This document shows, in pieces, positions 1-29,571 of a DNA stretch of 32,000 bases (position 1 is the first letter of the stretch; every line of letters begins with the position of its first letter). The translations under genes were made by a program, and so were the position numbers. Below the pieces are notes generated by a model. It had not been told where the DNA came from and did not search any database. It saw nothing but the letters and a program-made list of their open reading frames with translations. Origin of the DNA: an uncultured bacterium (lineage in GTDB: Bacteria > Patescibacteriota > Gracilibacteria > UBA1369 > PNNO01); assembly GCA_963704705.1 (NCBI GenBank), contig OY969931.1, positions 540,001 through 572,000 of the forward strand, given 5' to 3'.

Positions 1-2
1 GT

Positions 3-3000
3 GAACTTGCACAGTCAACAGGAGGCTTTTTTAGCTGCGGAAGTAAAGAAGTTACAACATTCACTCAGTTCCAGGGCGGTTTACAGCCACCTTCGGCTGA
101 AGGATATGATCCTACTCTTACACAGCAAACTGATCTAAGAGATTTCATTGTTAATGCAGTGAATTTTGTACTTGGATTTTTAGGCCTTGTTGCAGTTGTA
201 ATGGTAATCTACGGAGGATTCATGTATGTTACGGCCGCGGGACAGGAAGAGCAAACAACCAAAGGAAAGAAAAGCGTAATGTACGCGATGATTGGTATAG
301 TTATTATTCTTATATCTTATGCATTAGTTAATACAGTTATTAAAGGAGTCGGAAAAGGAACAGATGCTGGAATTAATTCCGGGACTCAGCAACTTGCAGG
401 AGCAGCTCCTGAAAATTTAACGGGTGATCAGACTCAGGCAATTCAAAGATTATTTTATGCTGCGGCATTGCAGGTTCAAAGAGCAGCTGAAGATTTGGCT
501 ACTAATTATTCTCATTATGTTGATGTTGACGATGCATTGGCTCAGCTTGAAGCAGTACCGTATGTTGATCGCGCAGACCAATTACATGTATTTTTAGGAG
601 ATATTAAACGTGCATTAAGTAATATTATTTCAGCTTCAGGTGAGTTGAGCAGAACTTCTGAAGCAGCTAAGTTTGCAGAAGATTATGTTGATACATTTTT
701 AAATCAATCTCAGCAGCAATTGACTGCTGATTGGACTACTTGGTGGTCGGACAACAGTGCTGATCTTCAATATGAAATAGATGCAATACTTACAGAGTCA
801 GGAGCAGAAGGTGAAAGTATATGGAAAGCAAATCTGCTTGATTTTGCTGATGCAGTTGAAAAAATCATTAGTAATTTAAATGATTTAAAAAAACAGATTG
901 AAAGCTCAGGATTAGTTACAACTTCTGAAACTGATTTTGGTGTAGCTTTTGATAGAGCTGTAAATAGTTTGGAAAATCTAATACCAATCGGTTTTGAAGT
1001 TCCGACAAATCAAAAAGTGATTGACGCACTTGAAGCATTAAGTGATTTACACACCGTGGTTCAGAACATCAAGTTTGTAGCAGCAATTATTAATGCGGAT
1101 GTTACTAAAGGCAATGCTCCGTTAATAGTAAATGTTGACGCACTTAATTCAGTAAGACCGGATTATGAAAGTATTAATCAGGATGATATTGAATGGGATT
1201 TTGGTGACGGAACCATTGTTGAAGGTAAATTCGCTACTTCTCACATTTATAGGGAAACAGGAAGTTTTGTAATTAAACTTACAATTAAAGGTGATTCTGC
1301 TAAAGGAATTGCTTCTGGTGTTGCTTATCAGGATGTTAAAATCGGTCCGCCTGCATCTCAGATTAATTTAAATGTAACTGTAGGAGACAGATTCCTTGGT
1401 TATTTGAGTTTCTACAAAGACGGATTCCTGGTTATAGATAAAAATAGATTAAACGTAACTTTAACAGAAGCCCGTGATATTGGTATTACATTTGATGCTT
1501 CTGAAACAAGAGGCGGTTCGCAGTCAGAACAGGAACAGGAAGCAGGAGGAACATATATTCAAACTGTTTCATGGGATTTTGGTGATGGAAGCGATACAAT
1601 ATTTGGAGAAATGGTTGCGAATGATGTACAAACACATTATTACGGTGAAGAGGGGACATATCCTGTTATAATTGAAGTTGTTGATTCAAGAGGAATTAGA
1701 GACAGAAAAGTATTTGAGGTAGTTGTTGATTCACCGGCAGCAAGAATTGATTTGAAGCCTGGAACAACAGCGAGAATTAATGAGGATGTAACATTTGATG
1801 GTGGTCAGTCTTCAACTGATGGCGGCCAGATTTCAGGTTACAAATGGAGTGTTTCAAATCCTCAATTAAAATATTCAGCGGAAGAAACCGATGAAAGTTT
1901 TACTAGTTCATTTGAAAGCCCGGGAGTTTATGATGTTTCACTAGTTGTTAGTGACAACCTGGGAAATACAGCAACTGATAATACGAAACTTAAAATTGAA
2001 TCAGAGCCTCCAAAGGCACAATTTACTTATTCAATTCAGAACCCGAGTAAACCGCACATTTATATGTTTGACGGAACTCAGAGTTTTGATCCGGACGGAA
2101 ATATACAAACAGGAACTTATAATTATAAATGGACAATAAATGCCGTGGATGATGATTATGATTTCATTAATCCTGAAACAGGCGAGTATGACCCTGATGG
2201 TGATAGTAAACCAAGAATGTATGTGAAATTTTATAGAACAGGCAATTACAAAGTTACTTTGGAAGTAGATGATGTTAATGAACCTGATAATCCTGGTATA
2301 CCGCAAGAACAAACAGTTAATGTTAATAGTATTTTGGATGTTGAATTTATGAATGTTGATTCTGGTGCAGCTGCTATTTTGAATGAGGACAGCGAAGCAA
2401 AAGTAAATCTATTGGGCTTTTCTGAAAACGCGGTTGCTTATGAATGGGATTTTGGTGATGGAAGCAGTCCGGTGTCTGGCGACATGATTTCAAATCAGGC
2501 TGCAATCACTCATACATATACTCAAGCTGGAAATTATGATGTAAGACTTTCGGTTTTTGATCGCGAAGATAATGAAAACAGTATTACACGAAGAATTGTT
2601 ATCGGCGAAGCTGATTCACCAATAGCCGTTATATCGGTTAAATCAGGTGATGTTGAGATTTATGATTTAAGTGAACCTATTGAAGTTAACAGAAAAACAG
2701 TTCTTTCATTTAGCGCTGAAAGATCTCTTAACCGTGATGGCACAGGAAGAAGACTTGCATATCAGTGGGATTTTGGGGATACAGACAGATCTACAAATAA
2801 AGATGCTACTCATAAATATAGTGATTTAAGCCCTAAAGATCCTGGTTATTATACAGTTACACTGAAAGTTCTCGATCAGAATGATCTAACAAAAACTTCA
2901 ATAGCAACAATGAGAGTTAATGTAATTGGAGAAACTCCAAAGTTACAGGCATTTACTGCTGTTCCCCAACAAGCAGATCTTACAACTCCGGTTAGAGTTA

Positions 3001-4355
3001 AGCTTGAGGCAATTGGTGCAGAAGATCCTGACGGTCAAATAGTAAAATATTTATGGTGGTATTATGATGAAAATGAACCGGATTTAACTTTTGGACATAC
3101 AATCACTCAAACTCCTCAGGCTTATATAACTATTGGAACCCGAGGTAAAGAAGGAGATGAAGTAACTTATAAATTTGGAGTTCAGTTAACGGATCAGGAA
3201 AACTTCACAGGAACTGCAAGCGATCTGTTACCTGAAAATCTTATCCCTAGTTTAACTGTTATTAATGGCCCTAACGATGTGCCTATATCAACATTCTCAG
3301 TTGATAGGACTTCTGTGTTGGTTGGTGAGGCAGTTAACTTTACCAGTGGTTCTTATGATCCGGATGGTAAAATTGTAAGTTATATTTGGGATGTTGAAGG
3401 AGATGGGTTCGGAAATAATGAACCAACAAATAATTCAACAATTGCTTATACTTATGACAAACCTTACCCGGACGGTGTAAATGTTAAATTAAAAGTTATT
3501 GATAATAATTATGCTGAATCTATTTCAAAACCAGTTAAATTATTCGTGGATGTTGTTTCACAAGATCCTGTTGCTGCATTTAGATATGAACTGGTTGGAG
3601 ATAATAAAATTAAATTTATTAATAATTCTACTGCAGATGAAGAAGCCGGAGCCAAGATTGATTCTTATCAATGGGATTTTGATATAAGCAGCGAAAATGA
3701 AAGCGCTGACAGTAATGGTGATGGAATTTTGGATAATGATAATGATTCTGAAGCGAAAGATCCGGTTTGGACCTATGAAAAACCAGGAATATATAGAGTA
3801 AAATTAAATGTATTTGATTCTTATGGAAAATCTGATGAAGTAATTAATTTTGTAAATGTTAGACCTCAAACAACTACAAGCACAGCAATTACCTCAACAG
3901 GTGATTTGGTGGCTGACTTTACAACTACACCTGCACCAGATCCTGACGGAGTGATTTATTTGTCAGGTGATTATGGTGATGTAAGTTTTGATTTCACAAA
4001 TTCCAAAGGAACAATAACTAAATATGTTTTTGATGATAATATATATGTTGATTCGGATAATGACGGAAGAAAAGCTGATGATCAAGATTACACAACAACA
4101 AAAAAAGGTATTTATACAACAACCTTTAATTCAGAAGATGATAAAATAAAAGTCAGACTTACTGTTTATGGTCCAAATGATTCATTTGATGTAAAAGAGG
4201 TGGAAATAAGTTTTAATAAAGGTTTAAACGAAACACAAGCGAATATATTAGGCAATACAAATATTCCATTGATACTTTTGAACCTGGCTATATTTGGTAT
4301 AGTTAGTTTAAGTCTTTATCAATTGTCGTTAAAAGAAGTTAAAATTAAAAAATAA
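3..4355 (+). CDS. Giant envelope protein, 5'-truncated by the window edge: T4SS-pilin-like (TrbC/VirB2-type) two-helix hairpin, helical linker, about 10 PKD domains, C-terminal TM anchor
   Basis: Frame 3 is open from nt 3, with no stop upstream of the track's Met at 159, so the real start lies left of the window. The segment DLRDFIVNAVNFVLGFLGLVAVVMVIYGGFMYVTAAGQEEQTTKGKKSVMYAMIGIVIILISYALVNTV has the helix - AGxxE/KxxKxK loop - helix pattern I recall from the 'type IV secretion system pilin' family abundant in CPR genomes. About ten repeats carry the PKD signature W(D/E)FGDG ... Y.V.L.V.D. The last 30 aa are a hydrophobic helix followed by KEVKIKK. Confidence 0.9.
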   Translation, partial: ELAQSTGGFFSCGSKEVTTFTQFQGGLQPPSAEGYDPTLTQQTDLRDFIVNAVNFVLGFLGLVAVVMVIYGGFMYVTAAGQEEQTTKGKKSVMYAMIGIVIILISYALVNTVIKGVGKGTDAGINSGTQQLAGAAPENLTGDQTQAIQRLFYAAALQVQRAAEDLATNYSHYVDVDDALAQLEAVPYVDRADQLHVFLGDIKRALSNIISASGELSRTSEAAKFAEDYVDTFLNQSQQQLTADWTTWWSDNSADLQYEIDAILTESGAEGESIWKANLLDFADAVEKIISNLNDLKKQIESSGLVTTSETDFGVAFDRAVNSLENLIPIGFEVPTNQKVIDALEALSDLHTVVQNIKFVAAIINADVTKGNAPLIVNVDALNSVRPDYESINQDDIEWDFGDGTIVEGKFATSHIYRETGSFVIKLTIKGDSAKGIASGVAYQDVKIGPPASQINLNVTVGDRFLGYLSFYKDGFLVIDKNRLNVTLTEARDIGITFDASETRGGSQSEQEQEAGGTYIQTVSWDFGDGSDTIFGEMVANDVQTHYYGEEGTYPVIIEVVDSRGIRDRKVFEVVVDSPAARIDLKPGTTARINEDVTFDGGQSSTDGGQISGYKWSVSNPQLKYSAEETDESFTSSFESPGVYDVSLVVSDNLGNTATDNTKLKIESEPPKAQFTYSIQNPSKPHIYMFDGTQSFDPDGNIQTGTYNYKWTINAVDDDYDFINPETGEYDPDGDSKPRMYVKFYRTGNYKVTLEVDDVNEPDNPGIPQEQTVNVNSILDVEFMNVDSGAAAILNEDSEAKVNLLGFSENAVAYEWDFGDGSSPVSGDMISNQAAITHTYTQAGNYDVRLSVFDREDNENSITRRIVIGEADSPIAVISVKSGDVEIYDLSEPIEVNRKTVLSFSAERSLNRDGTGRRLAYQWDFGDTDRSTNKDATHKYSDLSPKDPGYYTVTLKVLDQNDLTKTSIATMRVNVIGETPKLQAFTAVPQQADLTTPVRVKLEAIGAEDPDGQIVKYLWWYYDENEPDLTFGHTITQTPQAYITIGTRGKEGDEVTYKFGVQLTDQENFTGTASDLLPENLIPSLTVINGPNDVPISTFSVDRTSVLVGEAVNFTSGSYDPDGKIVSYIWDVEGDGFGNNEPTNNSTIAYTYDKPYPDGVNVKLKVIDNNYAESISKPVKLFVDVVSQDPVAAFRYELVGDNKIKFINNSTADEEAGAKIDSYQWDFDISSENESADSNGDGILDNDNDSEAKDPVWTYEKPGIYRVKLNVFDSYGKSDEVINFVNVRPQTTTSTAITSTGDLVADFTTTPAPDPDGVIYLSGDYGDVSFDFTNSKGTITKYVFDDNIYVDSDNDGRKADDQDYTTTKKGIYTTTFNSEDDKIKVRLTVYGPNDSFDVKEVEISFNKGLNETQANILGNTNIPLILLNLAIFGIVSLSLYQLSLKEVKIKK

Positions 4356-4365
4356 CTATATAATT

Positions 4366-6693
4366 ATGGATATTAATAATCCTCAAAATAATCAGTCTGC
4401 AGAGAGTTTTGGAACCGAATCGGTTTCTCAGCCAGCTGCGCCGACTTCACAAACACCGGCACAAGCACCAACACCGGCACAAGCACCAACACCGGCAACG
4501 CCACATGCGAATAATATGCCACCGGCAACGCCACCTGCACCTAAACCGGCTCCGGCAGCACCGGTTGCAAAACCTGCAACAGTAACCCCGGGTCAAAGAC
4601 CCGCTCCTGGAAGACCAGTTGTTTCACAGGAAGCATTAATACAAAGAGAAAGAGGCAGAAATAAAAAACTTTTAATTGGTTGCGGAGGAGCATTCGGATG
4701 CGGAACATTATTGTTAATGATTTTAATTTTTGTATTTGTGGGAGCAGCAGGAACAGGAACAAGCGCATTGGCTCAGGCACTTAATATTGATCAGGGGCAA
4801 CTTGTTAATTCACTTATTCTAATAGTTAATTTGTTTTTTGGAGTAAGTGCATTAATAGCATTTATCTTGTCAATCGGAGGAATTTTCAGAGCTGTTATGG
4901 CGCGCCGAGATGATAAAATCACAAAAAGAAAGGGTTATATTATGTCAGGAAGTTCATTTGGAATTTTGATATTAATTATAGTTATGTGGGTTGGAGCATG
5001 GTTTTATCTTACTTCACAACAGATTCCTCAAACGGAAATTAAACCCACAGGGCTTATAACTGTGCCTGTAGATACAACTAATTTAACTGCACCAATTGAA
5101 ATAACTTTTGATGCATCAAATTTACCTTATGATAAAGCGACATACGATATTATCTCTTATAATTGGGATTTTGGAGATGGCACACAGGGTCCGGGAAGCG
5201 ATGTTGAAACACATCTTTATGAAACAAAAGGTGATGGAAGATACGATGTAACTTTGACTTTGACGTTTGTAAATAAAAAGACAAGTGAAGAGAGCACACA
5301 ATCACTTACTCATACTGTTACTATTGCCGACGAACAAATTGTTGCAATAATTTCAGCAGATAAAACAGAAGGGGATATACCATTGACTGTAAACTTTGAT
5401 GGTAGTAAATCTTCTGATCCTGACGGCACTATAAAGAGCTATGCATGGGAAGTTGATGGTAAGGGATTTGAAGAAGGTGATCAAACTTTCTCTTATACTT
5501 TTGATAAAGTTGGAGAATATACCGTAAGATTGCGAGTAACAAATGTTGATGGAGACACAAATATTGATGAAGTAAAAATAACTGCAAAGCTTGGCAATAT
5601 GCCTTCACCAGTTATTAATATTTTAAATTCTGAAACTGACGGTAAATTATTTACTGGAAAATCTTATACTTTTGATGCTACCGGAACTGCCAGTCCTGGT
5701 GGAACAATCAGAAGTTATGATTGGGATTTCGGTGATGGAACTGCAAGTGTAAAAACAAGAACAGCACAGCACACATTTACATCAGCAGGCACATATAATG
5801 TTATCTTAACGGCAACTGATGAAGCAGGGGTTTCCGCTTCAAAAGAAATGAATGTTCAGGTAATAGTTGCACCTTCAGTACCTGTAGCAGTGATTGTTAC
5901 CAATCCAGCTAAAGCAAAACCGGATGATAACTTTATAGAAGGCGTCGCACCGTTTGAAGTTAATTTTGATGCAACCAGCAGTAATGATCCTGATGATGAT
6001 ATTATTGATTATCAGTGGGATTTTGACGGTGATGGTGTATACGATGCTGCTGGAGAAACAGTTAATCATACATTTAATACAGTTGGTAATTATAATGCAA
6101 CACTTGTAGTTATAGATTCAGCCGGATTTGAAGGCAAAAAGGTAATATTGGTGAAAGCAATTTCTCCGGGTCTTCAGACTTCGTTAACAGCTGACCCAGT
6201 ATCAGGAGTTGTACCTTTAACAGTTATTTTTGATGCAACTGGTTCAAAGTACGCTGACGGACAGATTGTAAGTTATGAATGGGATTTCGGAGACGGAACA
6301 CCAAGAAGAAGCGACATAGGTCAGGTTACTTATAAATATACAAAAATCGGTAACTTTACTGCAAAAGTTAAAGTTAGAACAAATGACAATAAAGAAAAAG
6401 AAGCTGAAATTTTAATTACAGTAAGGCAGGTTCCATTGGAATCATGTTTTGAACCTTCTAAAACAACCGGTGATGCACCACTGACATTAACTTTGAATCC
6501 TTCTTGCGCTACTGGTACAATAGCAACATACAAATGGGATTTTGGAGATGGTCAGACCTCAACAGAACGAAGACCTTCACATACCTTTGAAAATCCAGGA
6601 AGTTATGAGATTATATTGGAGGTTGCGGACGCACAGAATGTTGTTGATACCTCATCTCAATTTGTAACCGTAACAGGTGAATTAACCCAGTAA
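4366..6693 (+). CDS. Polytopic membrane protein: Pro/Ala-rich N-terminal tail, 3 predicted TM helices, 6 PKD domains
   Basis: 775-aa ORF starting 10 nt after the previous stop. The N-terminal ~100 aa are low-complexity (QAPTPAQAPTPATP...PPAPKPAPAAP). Hydrophobic helices: LLIGCGGAFGCGTLLLMILIFVFVGAAG, LVNSLILIVNLFFGVSALIAFILSIGGIF, FGILILIIVMWVGAWFYL. Six repeats follow with WDFGDG / WEVDGKG / WDFDGDG PKD signatures. Confidence 0.9.
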   Translation: MDINNPQNNQSAESFGTESVSQPAAPTSQTPAQAPTPAQAPTPATPHANNMPPATPPAPKPAPAAPVAKPATVTPGQRPAPGRPVVSQEALIQRERGRNKKLLIGCGGAFGCGTLLLMILIFVFVGAAGTGTSALAQALNIDQGQLVNSLILIVNLFFGVSALIAFILSIGGIFRAVMARRDDKITKRKGYIMSGSSFGILILIIVMWVGAWFYLTSQQIPQTEIKPTGLITVPVDTTNLTAPIEITFDASNLPYDKATYDIISYNWDFGDGTQGPGSDVETHLYETKGDGRYDVTLTLTFVNKKTSEESTQSLTHTVTIADEQIVAIISADKTEGDIPLTVNFDGSKSSDPDGTIKSYAWEVDGKGFEEGDQTFSYTFDKVGEYTVRLRVTNVDGDTNIDEVKITAKLGNMPSPVINILNSETDGKLFTGKSYTFDATGTASPGGTIRSYDWDFGDGTASVKTRTAQHTFTSAGTYNVILTATDEAGVSASKEMNVQVIVAPSVPVAVIVTNPAKAKPDDNFIEGVAPFEVNFDATSSNDPDDDIIDYQWDFDGDGVYDAAGETVNHTFNTVGNYNATLVVIDSAGFEGKKVILVKAISPGLQTSLTADPVSGVVPLTVIFDATGSKYADGQIVSYEWDFGDGTPRRSDIGQVTYKYTKIGNFTAKVKVRTNDNKEKEAEILITVRQVPLESCFEPSKTTGDAPLTLTLNPSCATGTIATYKWDFGDGQTSTERRPSHTFENPGSYEIILEVADAQNVVDTSSQFVTVTGELTQ
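4453..4503 (+). repeat. In-frame 18-nt tandem repeat (about 2.8 copies) ACACCGGCACAAGCACCA encoding (TPAQAP)n
   Basis: Two identical units at 4453-4470 and 4471-4488, plus a partial third unit, read directly from the sequence inside the Pro/Ala-rich tail of the 775-aa protein. Confidence 0.85.
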
Positions 6694-6695
6694 TT

Positions 6696-6812
6696 ATGGC
6701 AATTAATAAAAGACAAAAGAAAGTTGTACAAATAGTCGGACTTTTGGCTATAACAGCGATAGTTATTACAAGCTTTGCTCCAGCTATAGCAATTTTATTC
6801 TCACAGAAATAA
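6696..6812 (+). CDS. Small single-TM protein (38 aa), not in the ORF track (below its size cutoff)
   Basis: The ATG lies 2 nt after the stop of the PKD gene. Translation is MAINKRQKKVVQIVGLLAITAIVITSFAPAIAILFSQK*: a basic N-terminus followed by one hydrophobic helix, ending in TAA at 6810-6812. The position suggests translational coupling. There is no homology evidence. Confidence 0.4.
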   Translation: MAINKRQKKVVQIVGLLAITAIVITSFAPAIAILFSQK

Positions 6813-6826
6813 TTTAGAGCATAAAT

Positions 6827-6855
6827 TTGACCACGCAACTATAAAATGGTATAAT
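6827..6855 (+). promoter_or_regulatory. Sigma70-type promoter: TTGACC - 17 nt - TGgTATAAT (extended -10)
   Basis: TTGACC at 6827-6832, a 17-nt spacer, and TATAAT at 6850-6855 preceded by TG at 6847-6848. It lies 61 nt upstream of the ATG at 6917. Confidence 0.6.
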
Positions 6856-6860
6856 ATATT

Positions 6861-6881
6861 AATGGTATTGTACCATTTTTT
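6861..6881 (+). terminator. Short AT-rich hairpin plus T-tract (AATGGTA-ttg-TACCATT-TTTT): weak terminator of the PKD operon or a 5' stem-loop of the next mRNA
   Basis: A 7-bp perfect stem (6861-6867 / 6871-6877) is followed by a T run to 6881. An upstream copy AAAATGGTA (6843-6851) can alternatively pair with TACCATTTT (6871-6879). Confidence 0.3.
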
Positions 6882-6916
6882 AAATATTTAATTAAAAATA
6901 AATAACAAAAATAAAC

Positions 6917-9229
6917 ATGGAAAATCCTTTAGCCTCTATGCCACCTGAAGAAAATAAACCTGTTGAACCGGCGGTTCAACCAGCGCTTCAACCTGAAGCT
7001 ATGCCTGCGAAAGAAGGTGTAAAAGCAAAAAAGCCTTTCTTCACTAAAGGTAAAATCATTGCAATTTTTATAGGACTTGTGGTAATTGCCGCAATAGTTG
7101 GAGCAGTGATTTATTACCAGAGTGCTGAACAATTTAAAGGAGCAAGTTTTACAACTGCACCAGTAACAACTACTGTTCAGTCCGTTACAACAACTGTACA
7201 AAAGCCTGTTGTAACAACAACACAACCAGTTGAAAAATGTGTATCTGATAAAGGTTTGGGAGAAGGCGGTCATAACGTTTATGGCTGTGTTTGTAGTTTG
7301 GATGAAAGAACAGAAAATCCTGAAATCTGGGATCCAATTGATAGAGTATGGACTCAAGACCCTAATCCTTATCCAAATCCTTGTGTATGTCCTGATGATA
7401 AACCTATTTGGGACAGCACAAATAAAGTTTGTACAACAATTACATTAGCTCCGCTAGGAGTAACTACAGTTCAAATTCCACCGGAAGAAACAACTGAACC
7501 TGGAATTTCAACTCTTAGACCTCAAATTACAGATAGACCTCAGATAACCATTCCTAAAGAAGAAACATGTGAGAATACATCAGCTACTGCGGATTTAATT
7601 ACAGCTTACAACCAAAGAAACTGGGATGCTTACCAAGGAGCTTTGCAAAAACTTGATGATCTTGCTTGTATTGACCCATGTAAATTAAATATTTATTGGA
7701 CAATCTTTTATTTAAATACAAATAATTTAGACCAGGCAAAAGTTCAATTCGCTACATTTAAAAAGAATTGCGGAACCAATTGTAATTTATATTTTGGATA
7801 TGTTGGAATTGTTGCTGAAATTTTGAGTGAAATTGATCAAAGGGCTCAAACATTTACAGCTGCCAAACTGCCTGGATTAACAGATGATCAGCTTGATTTC
7901 TTGCGTCTTGTTGCTGAAGGTTATATAAATAGCTGTCAGTGTGTTGAATTGAATCAATTATTAACAAATCCGGTTCAGACATTGGATTCGTATTTTCCGG
8001 CCAATGTAACCAGCGCGATAGATCTTAATGCAGCGAAAGAATTGGCTCCAAGTACATTGTCTACTAATCGATTAAATTCAGGTTTAACAGTTGCTTACGC
8101 ACAAAGTTATTCACCTTCAGTTCAATCGGTTTTACAAAGTGTTTTGGACACAAAATGTCCTCCTGAGATAAAAAAAGAACCTAAAAATTGTGAAGCTTTG
8201 AATATAAAAGCACCTTACGATGTTGAAACATATGTTATGCCTGATTTGTTTAATCCTTCTGCAAATACACTCTCAATTGAAATAGTGGGTGGAGAAGACA
8301 ATATTCAGGATTATAAGTACACATCAAATAATTCAACTGTTAAATTTGACGGAACAAGCAGCTCATACAATACTTCAAATAAATCCGTAACTTTAAGTGG
8401 CGGTCCAAATGAAGGTGAATCAGATAAAATCACTGTTACTGCTGTTGATAAAAGTGGTCTTCCTTTAAAAGAATGTACAGATACAGTTACAATTACAAGA
8501 CCGAAAGCTGATCAACCAATTTGTAGATCACTTACAATAGTTGAACCTAGCGATGCTAATCAGGCTGGTACTCCAACAGTTGAAATAGATTCACCATATA
8601 ATAATGAAGTATTAAAAGTTAAGTTAGATGCTGACGCAGGAACATATGATGATTTAAGATTTACTTCAGATAACGGAAATATAACATTTGATGGTCAGGG
8701 CGTACTTGATACAACTTCATTAGAAGTGAAAATGAACGGTGCACCACCTGAAGATACAGAAGAATTAGTTACTGTATGGGCAAGAGCAAAATCCAGAGAC
8801 GGAAGCTATACTGGGATTAAAACATGTACTGATGCATTTATTGTAAAACTAGCAGGAGCACCTCCAACACTTACTTATGTACCCCCTACAAAAGATGAAG
8901 AGCCACCTCCAACATTAACTTATGTTCCACCTACTACAAAAGATGAGGAACCACCTCCGGTGATAACTTATGTCCCGCCTACAACAACTACAACGACAAC
9001 AACAGAACCAACACCTACAACAACTACAACAGTTACTACTTCAACTCCAACTGAACCTACACCGATTTATGTTACTCAAACTCAGCCACAGCCAACAATA
9101 GTTACAACAACTACACCGGCAATACATACGGCTGCACCTACTACGCCTTCAACAGGGCCGGAATTGTTTATTCCATTATTGGCTACAGCAATTGGAGGAG
9201 CCTGGATTAGAAGAAAAAAGAAAAAATAA
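6917..9229 (+). CDS. Surface protein: Pro-rich N-tail, signal-anchor TM, Thr/Val-rich stalk, Cys-rich and helical region, two Cys-bounded Ig-like repeats, PPTLTYVPPT(T)KDEE repeats, poly-Thr, sortase-type C-terminal sorting signal
   Basis: 770-aa ORF. TM helix IIAIFIGLVVIAAIVGAVIYY. An internal duplication is marked by ...KECTDTVTITRP... and ...KTCTDAFIVKLA... The C-terminus TPSTGPELFIPLLATAIGGAWIRRKKKK is an xPxTG motif, then a hydrophobic helix, then a basic tail. Confidence 0.9.
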   Translation: MENPLASMPPEENKPVEPAVQPALQPEAMPAKEGVKAKKPFFTKGKIIAIFIGLVVIAAIVGAVIYYQSAEQFKGASFTTAPVTTTVQSVTTTVQKPVVTTTQPVEKCVSDKGLGEGGHNVYGCVCSLDERTENPEIWDPIDRVWTQDPNPYPNPCVCPDDKPIWDSTNKVCTTITLAPLGVTTVQIPPEETTEPGISTLRPQITDRPQITIPKEETCENTSATADLITAYNQRNWDAYQGALQKLDDLACIDPCKLNIYWTIFYLNTNNLDQAKVQFATFKKNCGTNCNLYFGYVGIVAEILSEIDQRAQTFTAAKLPGLTDDQLDFLRLVAEGYINSCQCVELNQLLTNPVQTLDSYFPANVTSAIDLNAAKELAPSTLSTNRLNSGLTVAYAQSYSPSVQSVLQSVLDTKCPPEIKKEPKNCEALNIKAPYDVETYVMPDLFNPSANTLSIEIVGGEDNIQDYKYTSNNSTVKFDGTSSSYNTSNKSVTLSGGPNEGESDKITVTAVDKSGLPLKECTDTVTITRPKADQPICRSLTIVEPSDANQAGTPTVEIDSPYNNEVLKVKLDADAGTYDDLRFTSDNGNITFDGQGVLDTTSLEVKMNGAPPEDTEELVTVWARAKSRDGSYTGIKTCTDAFIVKLAGAPPTLTYVPPTKDEEPPPTLTYVPPTTKDEEPPPVITYVPPTTTTTTTTEPTPTTTTTVTTSTPTEPTPIYVTQTQPQPTIVTTTTPAIHTAAPTTPSTGPELFIPLLATAIGGAWIRRKKKK
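8861..8990 (+). repeat. Three in-frame tandem units (45-48 nt) encoding PPTLTYVPPT(T)KDEEP / PPVITYVPPTTT
   Basis: Units start at 8861, 8906 and 8954. The peptide repeat is nearly identical while many third codon positions differ (for example CTTACT vs TTAACT, GTACCCCCT vs GTTCCACCT). Confidence 0.8.
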
Positions 9230-10036
9230 TTAAATAAACTTTGAGAGCGGTCCGTGAGATATCGGGCCGCTTTTTAATTCTATTCCAAGTGCCACGCACA
9301 AAACTTCGCTCATATGCATAACCGGCATGTTGAATCCTTTTTGATAAAAATCAAACTGCATGTGGCAAAAAGGGCAGTTGGTAATAATTAAATCAGCTTC
9401 GCCTTCAGCTGCATCACGCAAATATTTATCGCTCATATGGGTTGATGCCTTTTTGTTATACATTCCAATGTGGAATCCGCAGCAATCAAGCTTTGAAGGT
9501 AAATCAACCGGAGTTGCACCCAGAGCTTCAACAAATTCTTCAAAATTAAATGGATTTGCAGTGTTTTGGTGATCTTTTACGTATTTTGAAGGCCTTAAAA
9601 TATGACAGCCGTAGTATGTTGCAATTTTTAAGCCTTTTAGAGGCTTTTTAACTGCCTTTTTAAGCTTTTCTATGCCTAAATCCTCTGTAAGTACCCAAAG
9701 CCAGTGTTTAACGTTAAAATCAGTGAATTTGCCTTTTTCTCGCTGCTTAAATAAGTCTTTTCTCAAATTTATTACACAAGTCGAACAAATGGTCATAATA
9801 TCTAGCCCCTTTGCCTTACTATATTTAAAATTCCGTTCATTCATATCTTCATTAAATTTAGCATCAACTTCTTTAACTACTCCAGCTCCGCAGCAGCTAA
9901 ACTCAGGAATATCAACCAGTTCGATTCCAAGTTTTTTGCATGCGAGTCTTGTAGCTTTATCATATTCAGATGTAAGCTGTTTGCTCGCGCATCCGGGAAA
10001 ATACGCATACCTTATTTTTTCTTCATTTCGTCCCAT
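9230..10036 (-). CDS. CCG-domain (HdrB-like) subunit of a type-E succinate dehydrogenase / fumarate reductase (SdhE / TfrB C-terminal-half-like)
   Basis: 268 aa with two cysteine-rich CCG motifs: YFPGCA...EFSCCGAG and YYGCHILR...KLDCCGFH...NCPFCHMQ. It overlaps the upstream sdhB-like gene by 25 nt. Confidence 0.8.
   Translation of the reverse strand: MGRNEEKIRYAYFPGCASKQLTSEYDKATRLACKKLGIELVDIPEFSCCGAGVVKEVDAKFNEDMNERNFKYSKAKGLDIMTICSTCVINLRKDLFKQREKGKFTDFNVKHWLWVLTEDLGIEKLKKAVKKPLKGLKIATYYGCHILRPSKYVKDHQNTANPFNFEEFVEALGATPVDLPSKLDCCGFHIGMYNKKASTHMSDKYLRDAAEGEADLIITNCPFCHMQFDFYQKGFNMPVMHMSEVLCVALGIELKSGPISHGPLSKFI
9247..9275 (+). terminator. Rho-independent terminator for the 770-aa gene, embedded in the 3' coding end of the convergent CCG-subunit gene
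   Basis: GCGGTCCG (9247-9254), loop tgagatat, CGGGCCGC (9263-9270; 8 bp including one G-U pair), then TTTTT (9271-9275). It begins 18 nt after the TAA at 9227-9229. Confidence 0.6.
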
Positions 10037-10908
10037 TTTTTAACTTTTTTAATAAATAGGGGAGGGAATTTGCCTTTTAAAAGCATTTTTATAGCAAGCG
10101 GAAGCATTTTTACTGCTCTAAATGGACCCCAGGTTCCAAGCGGCAGTTTAAATTCTTCAATTTCTCCTTTTCGCATAACTGATTTATAGATTGTTTTTGC
10201 ATGTCTTGCTCCGTCATTATTTGTAATACCTTCTTTTATTGAACTTTCACGTAAATGAGAAATAACATCTTGCGGCTCAATATCCTGAGGGCAGTTTTCA
10301 CTGGCTTTTTCACAATGAGCACACATCCAGATTTGCTTTTCTACAAGCTGTTTTAAGCGTTCACGTTTTGCCCCGTCACGTACATCATCAATGTAGCGTT
10401 GGGCCAGAACTGAAGCAGCCGGCCCCAAGTATTTTCCTGAAGCATCACGTGAAGGACAATCAGAAAAACAAGCAGCGCACCAAATACATTCAGAGGATTT
10501 TTCAATTTTTTTCACATCTTCAGGCATTACCTTAACATCACGCATTTCATCAAACCATGGTTTTACCGCTTCCATTTCAGCATAAAAAGGTTTCATGTCC
10601 ACAATCAAATCTTTAATAATTCTTAAATTTCCAATAGGTTTAATGCGCACTTCTCCAAACTCCGCAATTTCATTTTTCAAAAAAGTTTTGCATGTTAGCC
10701 TGGCGCGGCCATTAACAACCATTGAACAAGAACCGCAAATACCTGCTTTACACGCATGTCTGAATCCGAGTTCAGCGTCATGTTTTTCTTTAATTAAAAT
10801 TAGTGCATCCAAAACAGTTAAATTTTCATCATACTCAATTTCATACTCTTTAAAGTAAGGTTTTTCGTCTGTTTCCGGATTAAATCTTTGAATTTTAATC
10901 TTTATCAT
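10012..10908 (-). CDS. sdhB: Succinate dehydrogenase / fumarate reductase iron-sulfur subunit
   Basis: 298 aa. 2Fe-2S motif CKAGICGSCSMVVNGRARLTC. Ferredoxin-type clusters CIWCAACFSDCP and CAHCEKASENCP. It overlaps the flavoprotein gene by 14 nt. Confidence 0.88.
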   Translation of the reverse strand: MIKIKIQRFNPETDEKPYFKEYEIEYDENLTVLDALILIKEKHDAELGFRHACKAGICGSCSMVVNGRARLTCKTFLKNEIAEFGEVRIKPIGNLRIIKDLIVDMKPFYAEMEAVKPWFDEMRDVKVMPEDVKKIEKSSECIWCAACFSDCPSRDASGKYLGPAASVLAQRYIDDVRDGAKRERLKQLVEKQIWMCAHCEKASENCPQDIEPQDVISHLRESSIKEGITNNDGARHAKTIYKSVMRKGEIEEFKLPLGTWGPFRAVKMLPLAIKMLLKGKFPPLFIKKVKKWDEMKKK

Positions 10909-12463
10909 AATAAATAAAAGAATGTTTTTTAAAGTTTTGGTCGTCCCTCTCAGGATAATCCGTTCTATAATGAGCTCCGCGGCTTTCTTTGCGTTCTATT
11001 GCGGCTTTTAAAATCGCCTCTGCTATATCGAGCATGTTTTTAAGTTCAAGAGTGTTATAAAAACTAAAGTAATAAGGCGAACTGTTATTAATCTGAATAT
11101 TTTTATATCTTTCTTTTAATTCTTTTATGGATTTCAAGCCCTTAAACAATGAATCTTCATGCCTGAAAATGCCTGCGCTAAGCAGCATTTCGGTTTTTAA
11201 TTCATTTTTGATTTCATATGGATTTTCATTACCTTTTTCATTTAAATATTCCGGTTTTTCATGATTTTGTAATATGTTTGCTGGTGTGTTTTTTACGTAT
11301 TTCGTGGCATTTTGTCCTGCTTTTTTGCCAAAAACAACTGTTTCCATTAATGAATTGCCTCCGAGTCTGTTTGCTCCGTGGATTCCTGCGCAAGCGCATT
11401 CTCCGGCTGCAAATAAACCTTTAATTTCTGTTTCGCATTCTTCATTTGTTGAAATTCCTCCCATAAAATAGTGAACTCCCGGTTTTACCGGAATTGGCTG
11501 TTTTGTACAGTCTATGTCTGCGAATTCTTTTGCTATTTTATGGATTTGGCTTAATCTTCCCAAAACAACATCATCATCAAGATGCCTTAAATCCAGGTGA
11601 ACTGCTCCATCAATTCCACGGCCTTCTTCGATTTCTTTTTGGATTGCTCTGGCAACAATATCTCGTTCAGCAAGTTCATCAACAAACCGCTCACCATCTT
11701 TATTAATAAGATGAGCGCCTTCACCTCGTGTACCTTCTGAAATTAGCAAAGGCCTGTGATGAAGTGTTGTTGGATGAAACTGAACGAATTCGATATCTTT
11801 AAGTGCGCAGCCGGCACGATAGGCGAGTGCCATGCCGTCACCAGTTGAAATAGTTGCGTTAACTGTATTTTTAAATATCTGACCAGCGCCTCCGGTAGCC
11901 AAAATTACAGCTTTGGCCTGAATGGCATAATGCTCCCCGGTTGAAATATCATAGGCAGAAAGGCCAATAATTTTTCTGTCTTCAACAATCAATGAATCAA
12001 CAAACCACTCATCTAAAAATTCAACATTATTTTTTAAACATTGTGTATATAAAGTGGTAATTAAATTATGACCTGTATAATCGCGTGAATAACAGGTTCT
12101 AACTTCGCTGTTACCGCCAAAAGGTCTTTGAGCAATTTTGCCATCTTTAGTTCTGCTGAAAATCATTCCCATTTTCTCTAAATCTTCGATAGCTTCAGGT
12201 GCTTTTTCACAAAAATGCTGAACTGCTAAATTATCGCTTAAATCATCGCCGCCTTTTATTGTGTCTTCAATATGCGCTTTAACTGAACCATTTACAGCTG
12301 CGTTCATACCGCCCTGAGCCATACAGGTTTGGCTGCGTAAAGGGTGAACTTTTGAAATAATGCAAACTTTAAGGTCTTTTTCGCAGTTTAAAGCCGCTGT
12401 TAAACCTGTTCCGCCTCCGCCAACTATTACAATGTCATATTTTAATTTATTCATAGCCTGCAT
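10895..12463 (-). CDS. sdhA: Succinate dehydrogenase / fumarate reductase flavoprotein subunit; the real start may be the second Met at 12454
   Basis: 522 aa. Dinucleotide fold YDIVIVGGGGTGL. Active-site motifs FVQFHPT, EGTRGEGAHL, HYFMGGI, GANRLGGNSL, ESRGAHYRTDYPERDD. RSQT replaces the canonical RSHT covalent-FAD site. Confidence 0.88.
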   Translation of the reverse strand: MQAMNKLKYDIVIVGGGGTGLTAALNCEKDLKVCIISKVHPLRSQTCMAQGGMNAAVNGSVKAHIEDTIKGGDDLSDNLAVQHFCEKAPEAIEDLEKMGMIFSRTKDGKIAQRPFGGNSEVRTCYSRDYTGHNLITTLYTQCLKNNVEFLDEWFVDSLIVEDRKIIGLSAYDISTGEHYAIQAKAVILATGGAGQIFKNTVNATISTGDGMALAYRAGCALKDIEFVQFHPTTLHHRPLLISEGTRGEGAHLINKDGERFVDELAERDIVARAIQKEIEEGRGIDGAVHLDLRHLDDDVVLGRLSQIHKIAKEFADIDCTKQPIPVKPGVHYFMGGISTNEECETEIKGLFAAGECACAGIHGANRLGGNSLMETVVFGKKAGQNATKYVKNTPANILQNHEKPEYLNEKGNENPYEIKNELKTEMLLSAGIFRHEDSLFKGLKSIKELKERYKNIQINNSSPYYFSFYNTLELKNMLDIAEAILKAAIERKESRGAHYRTDYPERDDQNFKKHSFIYYDKD

Positions 12464-12581: not shown

Positions 12582-12656
12582 TGGGGCGTGGCCAAGTGGT
12601 AAGGCACCGGGTTTTGGTCCCGGCATTCGGGGGTTCGAATCCCTCCGCCCCAGCCA
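12582..12656 (+). tRNA. tRNA-Gln: tRNA-Gln (anticodon UUG), CCA encoded
   Basis: Manual cloverleaf. Acceptor stem TGGGGCG/CGCCCCA with the U1-A72 pair typical of bacterial tRNA-Gln. U8. D arm GCC-AAGTGGTAA-GGC. Anticodon stem CCGGG/CCCGG with loop TT-TTG-GT. T arm GGGGG-TTCGAAT-CCCTC. Discriminator G, then CCA. Confidence 0.95.
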
Positions 12657-12661
12657 ATTTA
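12650..12661 (+). repeat. Copy A of the direct repeat CCAGCCAATTTA (tRNA-Gln 3' end plus 5 nt)
   Basis: The exact 12-mer is shared with 14589-14600, and a near-copy sits at 13160-13172. Confidence 0.6.
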
Positions 12662-12671
12662 AGATTTTTAT

Positions 12672-13139
12672 ATGAGAGATAAAAGATTTATTGCGAAGCA
12701 TCGTGGAGGGCTTTTGGCGATGGACCAACATAAGCTTTTGATTAAATGGTCTTATCTATGTGTGGAACACGTTTTGTCGCTTTTAGGTCAGCTAATTGAT
12801 TCAAGAATATTGAATGCGATTTCCGTGGCAAAAGAGTGGGAAAAGGGTAATGTTAAAACTGGCGTGGCGATGAAAGCTGCAGTTGAAGCACACTCGTTAG
12901 CAAGAGAATCTTCCAACCCTGTTGAAATTGCTATTGCTCGTGCGGCTGGCCATGCAGTAGCTACCGCACATATGGCAGACCATTCATTGGGTGGTGCTCT
13001 TTATGCTTTGAAAGCTGTTAAATACGCAGGTCGTCCTATTGACATAGAAAAGGATTGGCAAAATCGAAAGGTCCCGTTAGAACTAAAAGATCTTGTATTG
13101 GAAACATTGATGGTTAAAGGAAAAAGCTTTAAACTGTAA
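12672..13139 (+). CDS. Helical protein resembling the 'putative immunity protein' (Imm5-like) family, often mis-annotated as exonuclease SbcC
   Basis: 155 aa. The pattern ...CVEHVLSLL...AISVAKEWEKGNV...AAVEAHSLARE...AIARAAGHAVATAHMADHSLGGALYALKAV matches my recollection of that family (consensus like RAAAHAAATAHMAAHALGAAAYAAKA). Recognition is from memory only. Confidence 0.55.
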   Translation: MRDKRFIAKHRGGLLAMDQHKLLIKWSYLCVEHVLSLLGQLIDSRILNAISVAKEWEKGNVKTGVAMKAAVEAHSLARESSNPVEIAIARAAGHAVATAHMADHSLGGALYALKAVKYAGRPIDIEKDWQNRKVPLELKDLVLETLMVKGKSFKL

Positions 13140-20007: not shown

Positions 20008-20068
20008 TTTACAAAATTAGGGTTTAACTGGAATATTAGAACCCTTTATAACAGATTTCTTTACAAAT

Positions 20069-29483: not shown

Positions 29484-29571
29484 ATATAAAAGGTTAATAA
29501 AAACTCCGATTTCCATAATACATCTATTATAACGATATTCAAACAATGACCGTTACAAGTTTAAGACCATG

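What the first reader, a model, noticed from the sequence alone, without database searches (positions are those of the whole stretch)
1..6812. Operon of PKD-array envelope proteins headed by a pilin-hairpin::PKD fusion
Seen in sequence: three tightly linked genes with gaps of 10 nt and 2 nt.
- Gene 1 (more than 1398 aa, start outside the window) begins its visible part with a two-helix hairpin. That hairpin looks like the small TrbC/VirB2-type 'T4SS pilin' proteins that are normally about 100-150 aa and stand alone in CPR genomes. Here it is fused to a ~250-aa helical region, about 10 PKD domains and a second, C-terminal TM anchor.
- Gene 2 has a ~100-aa Pro/Ala-rich tail, 3 TM helices and 6 PKD domains.
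- Gene 3 is an unlisted 38-aa TM peptide.

Inference: a protein anchored at both ends, displaying about 1100 aa of Ig-like repeats from a pilin-type membrane hairpin, is not an architecture I know to be characterised. In an episymbiotic lineage it is a plausible host-attachment or cell-cell contact apparatus.
Basis: partly seen in the sequence, partly recalled or inferred. Interest (0 to 1): 0.7.

Follow-up and report, generated by a model that had tools for sequence, protein, structure and literature searches.

The report
Pilin-hairpin and PKD envelope gene cassette
Three linked genes at the start of the window are the tail end of a conserved Peregrinibacteria operon in which membrane hairpins of the type IV secretion pilin family, two of them fused to long arrays of Ig-like PKD domains, probably build a fixed cell-surface structure that nobody has yet characterised.

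Summary
Gene 1 (3..4355) has a hairpin that passes Pfam T4SS_pilin (36.2 bits, cutoff 26.6). After it come a helical region of about 210 aa, 9 clear PKD domains plus one weak one, and a C-terminal TM. Gene 2 has a Pro/Ala-rich tail, 3 TM helices and 6 PKD domains. Gene 3 is a real 38-aa TM peptide (dN/dS about 0.13).

A matching contig adds context. Gene 1 is 1483 aa, so only 33 aa lie outside the window, and it starts with a signal peptide. It is the third pilin-family gene in a row, after two proteins that each carry three tandem hairpins. Gene 2's TM2-TM3 is probably a degenerate hairpin too.

The cassette recurs in 44 species-level Peregrinibacteria/Peribacteria genomes, usually beside secE-nusG. 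No VirB4-like or other ATPase family was found among the flanking genes I scanned, within 10 kb.

Each of the seven clear hairpins is its own orthologous group (253/253). Gene 2 homologues always have six PKD domains. This suggests a fixed hetero-oligomeric envelope structure, not a variable adhesin.

VirB2-like pilin arrays are already known in Patescibacteria, so this is a new variant of a known kind. Its function is untested.

The parts
3..4355 (+). Gene 1 (visible part; full length 1483 aa). It comprises a signal peptide (outside the window), a conserved Cys-containing pre-hairpin segment, a T4SS_pilin hairpin, a helical region, 9-10 PKD domains and a C-terminal TM with a basic tail.
3..137 (+). 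Conserved extracellular pre-hairpin segment of gene 1 (full-length aa 34-78), with the motif C..TFTxFxG..PP..EGY..LTQ..R.
   Evidence: Invariant columns in alignments A1 and A2. Mean identity is 49% over 39 species.
138..347 (+). Gene 1 pilin-type hairpin (aa 79-148): two hydrophobic helices joined by the basic loop AAGQEEQTTKGKKS.
   Evidence: PF18895 at 36.2 bits and NF045849 at 40.1 bits. It is the most conserved region of the protein, with 68.5% mean identity over 39 species.
432..1064 (+). Helical region of gene 1 (aa 177-387). It has no family match.
   Evidence: AF2 predicts helices with pLDDT about 75-90. There is no Pfam hit and no specific PDB match by sequence or fold.
1086..3884 (+). 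Nine PKD domains of gene 1 (aa 395-1327).
   Evidence: Pfam PKD_4 at 3e-61 and my own HMM. Each domain is positionally conserved across species at 38-51% identity.
3894..4241 (+). Weak tenth Ig-like unit of gene 1 (aa 1331-1446).
Evidence: My own PKD HMM gives only E 0.07-0.17.
4263..4319 (+). C-terminal hydrophobic helix of gene 1 (aa 1454-1472). It is preceded by the conserved motif QANIL and followed by KEVKIKK, which makes it a membrane anchor or an unrecognised sorting signal.
   Evidence: Kyte-Doolittle score 2.17. The motif, helix and basic tail together are present in 35 of 39 homologues. No NCBIfam sorting-signal model matches.
4366..6693 (+). Gene 2 (775 aa). It has a P/A-rich cytoplasmic tail (nt 4366-4665), the signal-anchor TM1 (4690-4746), the hairpin-like pair TM2-TM3 (4813-5013) and six PKD domains (5059-6690).
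   Evidence: hhalign of TM2-TM3 against the gene 1 hairpin gives E 1.2e-4, while reversed controls give 0.05-0.12.
6696..6812 (+). Gene 3: a 38-aa peptide with one TM helix, a basic N-terminus and an 'AP' motif near the C-terminus.
   Evidence: an equivalent peptide in 23 of 36 loci; dN/dS 0.13.
6843..6885 (+). AU-rich 15-bp hairpin followed by a T-run. It is the probable terminator of the operon.
   Evidence: -14.4 kcal/mol, z -2.6.
6827..6855 (+). Promoter-like site TTGACC-17-TATAAT with an extended -10 TG, placed ahead of gene 4.
   Evidence: 11 of 12 matches, the best in the region.

Best explanation
Genes 1-3 are the distal half of a vertically inherited Peregrinibacteria operon. It is this lineage's version of the VirB2-like 'pilin array' of Patescibacteria.

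**Components**
- Protein A carries three hairpins.
- Protein B carries three hairpins.
- Gene 1 carries one hairpin.
- Gene 2 probably carries one hairpin.

**Proposed steps**
1. The hairpins insert through Sec. Both ends face outside and the short basic loop sits in the cytoplasm.
2. The hairpins pack side by side into a defined hetero-oligomer in the cytoplasmic membrane, together with the gene 3 peptide.
3. Gene 1 projects a helical bundle and 9-10 PKD domains from this platform. Extended, they would span roughly 35-40 nm (my estimate).
4. Gene 2 projects exactly six PKD domains, roughly 20-25 nm.
5. These fixed-length Ig-like stalks cross the wall and S-layer and present a surface for contact with other cells or envelope layers.

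**Anchoring**
- Gene 1 is tied down again by its C-terminal helix, unless an unknown sorting enzyme removes it.
- Gene 2 is locked in the membrane by an uncleaved TM1 and a cytoplasmic Pro/Ala-rich tail.

**What is shown and what is inferred**
- Shown: family membership of the hairpins, the domain layout, operon conservation, and position-specific orthology.
- Inferred: co-assembly, membrane residence, and the contact or scaffold function.
For: **Family membership.**
- Gene 1 scores 36.2 bits on T4SS_pilin. Proteins A and B score 90.9 and 88.5 bits, each with three stretches.
- NCBIfam's pilin-like conjugal transfer model gives 40.1 bits for gene 1 and 52.4 for B.

**Operon.**
- Gaps are -14, 7, 56, 10 and 2 nt.
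- A terminator-like hairpin and a promoter-like site follow gene 3.

**Conservation.**
- There are 44 species-level loci, all Peregrinibacteria, Peribacteria or Patescibacteria, with the order A-B-gene 1-gene 2.
- A gene-2-type N-terminus is found in 40 of 45 loci.

**Fixed composition.**
- Every hairpin's nearest foreign relative sits at the same position, 253 of 253 over A1-A3, B1-B3 and C1. Paralogues share only 19-35% identity.
- Gene 2 homologues have six PKD domains in 37 of 37 cases and end 0-5 aa after the last one. Gene 1 homologues have a mode of nine.
- The hairpin is the most conserved part of gene 1, at 68.5% identity.

**Topology.**
- Basic loops and tails sit on the cytoplasmic side.
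- Gene 2 TM2-TM3 aligns in register with the gene 1 hairpin, E 1.2e-4 against 0.05-0.12 for controls.

**Context from the literature.**
- Saccharibacteria carry six divergent, essential VirB2-like pilins (PMC12857230, PMC10633639).
- Pilin arrays of 2-11 genes occur in 383 assemblies (PMC12102498).
Against: - There is no direct evidence that the proteins interact. No multimer prediction or experiment was possible.
- Homology to pilins argues that hairpins might instead be extracted into a filament.
- Four of 39 gene 1 homologues lack the C-terminal helix, so double anchoring is not universal.
- The gene 2 hairpin call is weak: hhalign probability is 56% and Pfam gives no hit.
- The gene 3 peptide is absent from one clade.
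- Fold searches gave nothing specific for the helical region or the triple-hairpin protein.
- Function (contact versus scaffold versus transport) is entirely inferred.
- Lengths in nm are my estimate from typical PKD domain size, not a tool result.
Confidence: 0.45

Rival explanations
1. The cassette builds a true conjugative-type (T4SS) pilus. A and B are concatenated major pilins that a VirB4-driven machine, encoded elsewhere, extracts from the membrane. Gene 1 and gene 2 are 'modular pilins' that join the filament or its base and display PKD adhesins for host attachment.
For: - The hairpins pass two independent pilin-family models.
- In known VirB2/TraA pili both termini face the outside (my own knowledge), so a C-terminal fusion would be surface-displayed.
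- Pilin arrays are essential in Southlakia and are thought to make pili (PMC10633639, PMC12857230).
- T4SS genes are dispersed rather than clustered in class Gracilibacteria (PMC12102498), so the lack of linkage is not decisive.
Against: - The cassette has no small single-hairpin major pilin.
- Seven non-interchangeable hairpins are encoded at 1:1.
- Gene 2's uncleaved TM1 with a 45-186-aa cytoplasmic tail, and gene 1's C-terminal helix, would hold them in the membrane.
- No VirB4-like or other ATPase family was found among the flanking ORFs I scanned, within 10 kb.
- PKD arrays show no sign of the variability expected of host-range adhesins.
Confidence: 0.27
2. The hairpin proteins are the membrane translocon or stalk of a divergent T4SS, functionally replacing the VirB6 that cannot be detected in this class. 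The PKD proteins form the wall-spanning conduit or its scaffold, so the cassette moves DNA, proteins or nutrients rather than merely adhering.
For: - VirB6 homologues are reported absent in Gracilibacteria-class genomes (PMC12102498).
- A and B are 6-TM proteins.
- The cassette is highly conserved and sits next to secE-nusG-rplA, a strongly expressed neighbourhood.
Against: - Nothing resembles VirB6, VirB3 or VirB8 in Pfam or NCBIfam.
- The 6-TM proteins are plainly three pilin repeats.
- No ATPase is nearby.
- PKD arrays are not known conduit elements (my own knowledge).
Confidence: 0.13
3. Genes 1 and 2 are ordinary PKD surface proteins. The hairpins serve only as generic membrane anchors, and the neighbourhood with pilin genes has no functional meaning.
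For: - PKD arrays are common in large CPR surface proteins (PMC8080830, PMC4736985).
- The helical region and gene 2's N-terminus have no family hit.
Against: - The hairpin scores above curated cutoffs and is the most conserved part of the protein.
- The gene order A-B-gene 1-gene 2 is kept in about 40 species, with gaps of a few bases.
- Domain counts are fixed.
Confidence: 0.07

Closest known systems
VirB2-like pilin arrays of Patescibacteria (Southlakia epibionticum SEML1 T4SS locus; arrays surveyed by Quinonero-Coronel et al. 2025)
   Same: - The same Pfam family, PF18895, is involved.
- Several sequence-divergent hairpins are encoded side by side. Six occur in Southlakia, against 3+3 in proteins A and B here.
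- The host is a monoderm CPR bacterium.
- A signal peptide precedes a two-helix hairpin.
   Different: - Here six hairpins are concatenated into two polypeptides.
- Two further hairpins are fused to 6 and 9-10 PKD domains.
- A small TM peptide is attached to the operon.
- The cassette lies beside secE-nusG, with no VirB4 within 10 kb, rather than inside a T4SS cluster.
- Essentiality is unknown.
VirB2/TrbC/TraA conjugative pilins of Proteobacteria (Pfam PF04956)
   Same: - The plan is the same: a leader peptide followed by a hydrophobic helical hairpin with a basic loop.
- There is weak HMM similarity, with TrbC at 21-26 bits.
   Different: - The scores fall below the TrbC cutoff.
- Classical pilins are small single hairpins, encoded with VirB3-B11, that polymerise with lipid into a pilus.
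- None carries a 1300-aa ectodomain or a second membrane anchor.
Mbov_0395-family pilin-like conjugal transfer proteins of Mycoplasma ICEs (NCBIfam NF045849)
   Same: Gene 1 scores 40.1 bits and protein B scores 52.4 bits on this model, which links the hairpin to monoderm conjugation systems.
   Different: - The Mycoplasma proteins are small ICE-borne proteins.
- The locus here is chromosomal, shows no ICE genes, and has large fusions.
Modular type IV pilins (e.g. Streptococcus sanguinis PilB/PilC) - analogy from my own knowledge
   Same: The concept is the same: a pilin membrane module fused to a bulky extracellular adhesive module.
   Different: - The pilin fold and machinery are unrelated, being type IV pilus rather than T4SS.
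- No class III signal peptide is present here.
Large PKD/Ig-repeat surface proteins of CPR bacteria (Vampirococcus, Peribacter)
   Same: Both are giant membrane-anchored proteins with PKD arrays that have been proposed to mediate attachment.
   Different: - Those reports do not describe a pilin-hairpin anchor.
- They do not report fixed domain counts or a conserved hairpin operon.

Membership tests
T4SS pilin (Pfam PF18895 / VirB2-TrbC superfamily) | Significant match to the family HMM above the curated cutoff. | tested here: met
   - Gene 1 scores 36.2 bits against a cutoff of 26.6.
- Proteins A and B score 90.9 and 88.5 bits, each with three stretches.
- NF045849 gives 40.1 bits against a cutoff of 40.
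- TrbC PF04956 gives only 21 bits, below its 27.9 cutoff.
T4SS pilin (Pfam PF18895 / VirB2-TrbC superfamily) | A leader or signal peptide followed by two hydrophobic helices joined by a short basic loop. | tested here: met
   - The signal peptide ends in ASA and was judged by eye.
- The helices lie at aa 85-103 and 128-146, joined by the loop AAGQEEQTTKGKKS.
- AF2 predicts a helix-turn-helix.
T4SS pilin (Pfam PF18895 / VirB2-TrbC superfamily) | A small stand-alone protein of roughly 70-150 aa. | tested here: not met
   - Gene 1 is 1483 aa and gene 2 is 775 aa.
- Proteins A and B are 371 and 315 aa, each with three hairpins.
T4SS pilin (Pfam PF18895 / VirB2-TrbC superfamily) | Encoded with VirB4 and other T4SS components. 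| tested here: not met
   - No VirB4, AAA ATPase, VirB6 or VirB8 was found in the 32-kb window.
- None was found among the 20 flanking ORFs scanned with Pfam from 9 related loci; several of those ORFs had no Pfam hit at all.
- The rest of the genome could not be searched.
T4SS pilin (Pfam PF18895 / VirB2-TrbC superfamily) | Polymerises into an extracellular pilus. | not testable with these tools
   This needs cryo-ET, cryo-EM or fractionation.
PKD-domain surface protein | Tandem PKD (Ig-like beta-sandwich) domains with the WDFGDG-type motif. | tested here: met
   - PKD_4 gives 3e-61 for gene 1 and 2.7e-89 for gene 2.
- The counts are 9+1 and 6 domains.
- Foldseek hits to ColH, ColG and PrtV PKD domains give target-normalised TM-scores of 0.75-0.82.
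Sortase / exosortase-type C-terminal sorting signal | A recognised motif (LPXTG, PEP, PGF, GlyGly and so on), then a hydrophobic helix, then a basic tail. | tested here: inconclusive
   - The helix and basic tail are present, and a lineage-specific motif [GQ]A[NT]x[LFM][LFP] is conserved in 35 of 39 homologues. Some clades read LPVT[NS].
- No NCBIfam sorting-signal model hits gene 1.
Patescibacterial VirB2-like pilin array | Two or more pilin-family genes in tandem, or separated by one gene. | tested here: met
   Protein A, protein B and gene 1 are consecutive PF18895 genes. This matches the definition used in PMC12102498.

The most novel reading that the evidence does not exclude
Peregrinibacteria have turned the VirB2-type pilin hairpin into a fixed-stoichiometry machine with eight hairpins, independent of any VirB4. 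It consists of two triple-hairpin subunits, two hairpin-anchored PKD stalks of set length and a micro-peptide. It would be a previously unseen kind of envelope-spanning organelle that makes or gates the physical junction with partner cells.
Probability: 0.2. Interest if true: 0.8.

Novelty: new variant of a known kind. Interest (0 to 1): 0.6.

Why it matters
VirB2-like pilin arrays are one of the few envelope systems shown to be essential for the epibiotic life of cultivated Patescibacteria. What they build is unknown.

This cassette offers a naturally 'wired' version:
- Hairpins are covalently linked three by three.
- Each position is individually conserved.
- Two hairpins are fused to rulers of exactly six and about nine PKD domains.

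That wiring constrains how the hairpins can pack, and it gives concrete, testable targets for complex prediction and cryo-ET.

It also shows that pilin-family hairpins can act as anchors for giant surface proteins. This may explain part of the 'large extracellular protein' complement long noted in Peregrinibacteria genomes.

Tried and rejected
- **Structure prediction with locus sequences.** The 8-sequence alignment I then used gave only moderate confidence (pLDDT 68).
- **Profile search with alignment A2.** In the word-indexed protein database it returned only 4 hits.
- **Fold searches.**
  - Foldseek against the PDB found only PKD hits for gene 1. There was nothing VirB5/TraC-like for the helical region.
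  - For the triple-hairpin model it found nothing significant. The top hits were 14-3-3 proteins at E above 0.05.
- **PDB sequence profile.** It returned only PKD matches and generic coiled coils.
- **Fusion test.** I asked whether 6- or 8-hairpin proteins from other lineages are A+B fusions. They are not: their hairpins do not follow the A1-A2-A3-B1-B2-B3 order.
- **Faulty model.** In that same run my 'D1' model for the gene 2 hairpin turned out to be contaminated by PKD sequence. I therefore discard the D1 rows.
- **Source contig.** The source contig of over 1 Mb could not be read. Only the 16.6-kb Logan contig came back, so the rest of the genome could not be checked for VirB4.
- **Supplementary tables.** Those of PMC12102498 hold no Peribacter or Peregrinibacteria rows in the stored part.
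- **Sorting signals.** Known sorting-signal models do not match gene 1's C-terminus.

Full report
**1. What is in the window**

Three + strand ORFs occupy 3..4355, 4366..6693 and 6696..6812, separated by 10 nt and 2 nt. The first frame is open from base 3.

An exact-protein look-up of gene 2 returned a 16.6-kb contig, L001. It is identical to the window over 12,169 shared bases and extends 4,493 bases upstream. There gene 1 is complete at 1483 aa. Only 33 residues lie outside the window, and they form a typical signal peptide ending in ASA.

**2. Domain content**

Gene 1:
- The hairpin passes Pfam T4SS_pilin (PF18895) at 36.2 bits against a 26.6 cutoff. TrbC/VirB2 scores 21 bits, below its cutoff.
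- NCBIfam NF045849, 'Mbov_0395 family pilin-like conjugal transfer protein', is just met at 40.1 bits against 40.
- AF2 predicts a helix-turn-helix, a disordered linker, then a helical bundle of about 210 aa with pLDDT 75-90, then the first PKD domain.
- The helical region has no Pfam, PDB-sequence or Foldseek relative.
- An HMM seeded on gene 2's repeats finds nine confident PKD domains (aa 395-1327) and a weak tenth Ig-like unit.
- A hydrophobic helix at aa 1454-1472 with a KIKK tail ends the protein.

Gene 2:
- It has a 100-aa tail rich in P/A/Q/T/S, ending in a basic cluster.
- Three hydrophobic helices follow.
- Exactly six PKD domains come next, and the protein stops at the end of the sixth.

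Gene 3 is a 38-aa peptide with a basic N-terminus and one TM helix.

**3. The larger operon**

Upstream in L001 lie three more genes:
- A 691-aa Lys/Glu-rich protein without TM helices or a Pfam hit.
- Protein A (371 aa).
- Protein B (315 aa).

A and B each have a signal peptide plus three tandem T4SS_pilin hairpins, scoring 90.9 and 88.5 bits with three stretches each. AF2 of B gives three long helical hairpins at pLDDT 74.

Spacings are -14, 7, 56, 10 and 2 nt. After gene 3 come a 15-bp AU-rich hairpin with a T-run (-14.4 kcal/mol, z -2.6) and the best promoter-like site of the region (11 of 12 matches, with extended -10). Gene 4 (6917..9229) is therefore probably a separate transcription unit.

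A profile-profile comparison aligns gene 2's TM2-loop-TM3 in register with gene 1's hairpin. It gives E 1.2e-4 and probability 56%, while reversed-sequence controls give 0.05-0.12. Gene 2 therefore probably reads: cytoplasmic tail, signal-anchor TM, degenerate hairpin, PKD array. Pfam itself does not see this hairpin.

**4. Conservation**

Extent of the family:
- A pattern scan of one genome per GTDB species found 44 loci. All come from Peregrinibacteria, Peribacteria or unclassified Patescibacteria MAGs and SAGs.
- My ORF and phmmer maps show the order A-B-gene 1-gene 2 throughout.
- Thirty-nine complete gene 1 homologues range from 1480 to 1785 aa, and a gene-2-type N-terminus occurs in 40 of 45 loci.

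Gene 3:
- A peptide of 26-77 aa (mostly 32-41) with one TM helix follows gene 2 in 23 of 36 loci that have enough downstream sequence. One of them (L045) is a doubtful match. The peptide is missing from one clade.
- In the close clade its median dN/dS is 0.13, so it is a real gene.

Neighbourhood:
- The 691-aa protein and gene 4 are confined to close relatives.
- Many loci have the cassette divergently next to secE-nusG-rplA.
- Other flanking genes are housekeeping genes such as purF, purD, fumarase and an amino-acid permease.
- No VirB4-like or other ATPase family appeared in the Pfam scans of the window or of 20 flanking ORFs from 9 related loci. Several of those ORFs had no Pfam hit at all.

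A full HMMER scan of 1.84 billion cluster representatives with gene 1 aa 34-394 gave these counts:

| E-value threshold | Hits |
|---|---|
| 1e-3 or better | 32,905 |
| 1e-10 or better | 2,344 |
| 1e-30 or better | 76 |

- About 120 of the best 150 are proteins of roughly 900-2,650 aa, mostly 1,400-1,800, with one N-terminal hairpin and PKD-like repeats.
- The four sampled with Pfam were T4SS_pilin plus PKD arrays.
- The rest of the best 150 carry 3-8 tandem hairpins.

**5. Signs of a defined assembly**

- Hairpins extracted from A, B and gene 1 of all loci fall into seven position-specific orthologous groups. For 253 of 253 hairpins the most similar hairpin from another genome occupies the same position.
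- Same-position identity is 37-52%, and between-position identity is 19-35% both within and between genomes. The seven hairpins therefore diverged before these species did, and none has been lost or homogenised.
- Gene 1's hairpin is the most conserved part of the protein, at 68.5% mean identity over 39 species. That compares with 28% for the helical region and 38-51% for each PKD domain, which align one to one.
- Gene 2 homologues have six PKD domains in 37 of 37 cases. Gene 1 homologues have 7-10, with a mode of nine.

These patterns fit subunits with fixed places and fixed lengths. They do not fit antigenically variable pilins or fast-evolving adhesins.

**6. Mechanism**

Sequence shows a consistent positive-inside topology:
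- Cleaved N-termini lie outside.
- Hairpin loops (AGNEE..TK.KK) lie in the cytoplasm.
- Ectodomains lie outside.
- Gene 2's tail and gene 1's last residues lie in the cytoplasm.

Gene 2's uncleaved TM1 and gene 1's C-terminal helix would hold them in the membrane. I therefore favour a membrane-resident hetero-oligomeric hairpin platform carrying two PKD stalks that span the envelope (confidence 0.45).

The main rival is a true T4SS pilus with concatenated and modular pilins (0.27). Homology supports it, as does the essential six-pilin array of Southlakia (PMC10633639, PMC12857230). Lack of VirB4 linkage is weak evidence against it, because T4SS genes are dispersed in class Gracilibacteria (PMC12102498).

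A translocon or VirB6-substitute role (0.13) and 'ordinary adhesins' (0.07) are less likely.

The conserved C-terminal module of gene 1 homologues consists of the motif [GQ]A[NT]x[LFM][LFP], a helix and a basic tail. It is present in 35 of 39 and reads LPVT[NS] in some clades. It could be an unrecognised sorting signal, but no known model matches it.

**7. Comparison with what is known, and novelty**

- VirB2-like pilin arrays of 2-11 genes are documented in 383 Patescibacteria assemblies and are essential in one cultivated species (PMC12102498, PMC10633639).
- Large PKD-bearing surface proteins are noted in CPR genomes (PMC8080830, PMC4736985).
- I found no report of pilin hairpins fused to PKD arrays, of triple-hairpin polypeptides, or of this cassette.
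- PF18895 appears in only three papers of the searched library. Of the two listed, the T4SS survey has no occurrence of PKD and the other cites the family only as a domain abundant in freshwater-specific protein clusters.
- Database names are 'hypothetical protein', 'pilin', or misnomers such as 'cytochrome bd subunit 2'.

The finding is thus a new variant of a known kind. It is real, widespread in one lineage and uncharacterised, and its function is still inferred.

Noticed in passing
window 6917-9229 (+): Gene 4 encodes a 770-aa protein with no Pfam hit. It has an N-terminal TM, a Cys-rich middle and a Thr/Pro-rich C-terminal part, and it ends in ...TPSTGPELFIPLLATAIGGAWIRRKKKK. That ending looks like a sorting signal, but PEP-CTERM scores only 13.9 bits, below the 16-bit cutoff. 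The gene has its own promoter-like site. Homologues sit at this position only in close relatives (9 loci).
   Followed up: partly
window 9230-12463 (-): Three overlapping genes look like a succinate dehydrogenase or fumarate reductase: a flavoprotein (FAD_binding_2 plus Succ_DH_flav_C), an Fe-S subunit (Fer2_3) and a CCG-domain subunit. Related loci carry a fumarase next to the cassette. By my own knowledge this is unusual for a CPR-type genome.
   Followed up: no
window 12582-13139 (+): A tRNA-Gln(ttg) gene is followed directly by a 155-aa Imm5_like putative immunity protein (1.2e-35). No toxin gene was recognised nearby.
   Followed up: no
window 27627-29546 (-): A 639-aa protein carries DUF4215 repeats and two S-layer homology (SLH) stretches. 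This implies a wall polymer that anchors SLH proteins in this organism.
   Followed up: no
L001 208-2283 (+), upstream of the window: A 691-aa Lys/Glu-rich protein without TM helices or a family hit contains two internal repeats of about 90 aa. Its end overlaps the start of the first triple-hairpin gene by 14 nt. Recognisable homologues at this position occur only in the close clade (6 loci).
   Followed up: partly
proteins P0011, P0012, P0016, P0019, P0024: Other metagenomic proteins carry 5-8 tandem T4SS_pilin hairpins in one polypeptide. Pfam finds 8 stretches in P0012 and 6 in P0011. Concatenation of pilin hairpins is therefore widespread, and these proteins are not simple fusions of the A and B proteins seen here.
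   Followed up: partly
C-termini of gene 1 homologues (L001-L045; window 4200-4352): A lineage-specific C-terminal module is conserved: the motif [GQ]-A-[NT]-x-[LFM]-[LFP] (LPVT[NS] or FPVS in some clades), a spacer, a hydrophobic helix and a basic tail. It matches no known sorting-signal model.
   Followed up: partly
window 17734-21184 (-): Two adjacent genes, of 757 aa and 371 aa, have no Pfam hit at E of 0.05 or better.
   Followed up: no
database annotations of triple-hairpin homologues: JGI names several of these proteins 'cytochrome bd-type quinol oxidase subunit 2' or 'Ca2+/Na+ antiporter'. These are likely mis-annotations driven by hydrophobic similarity.
   Followed up: no
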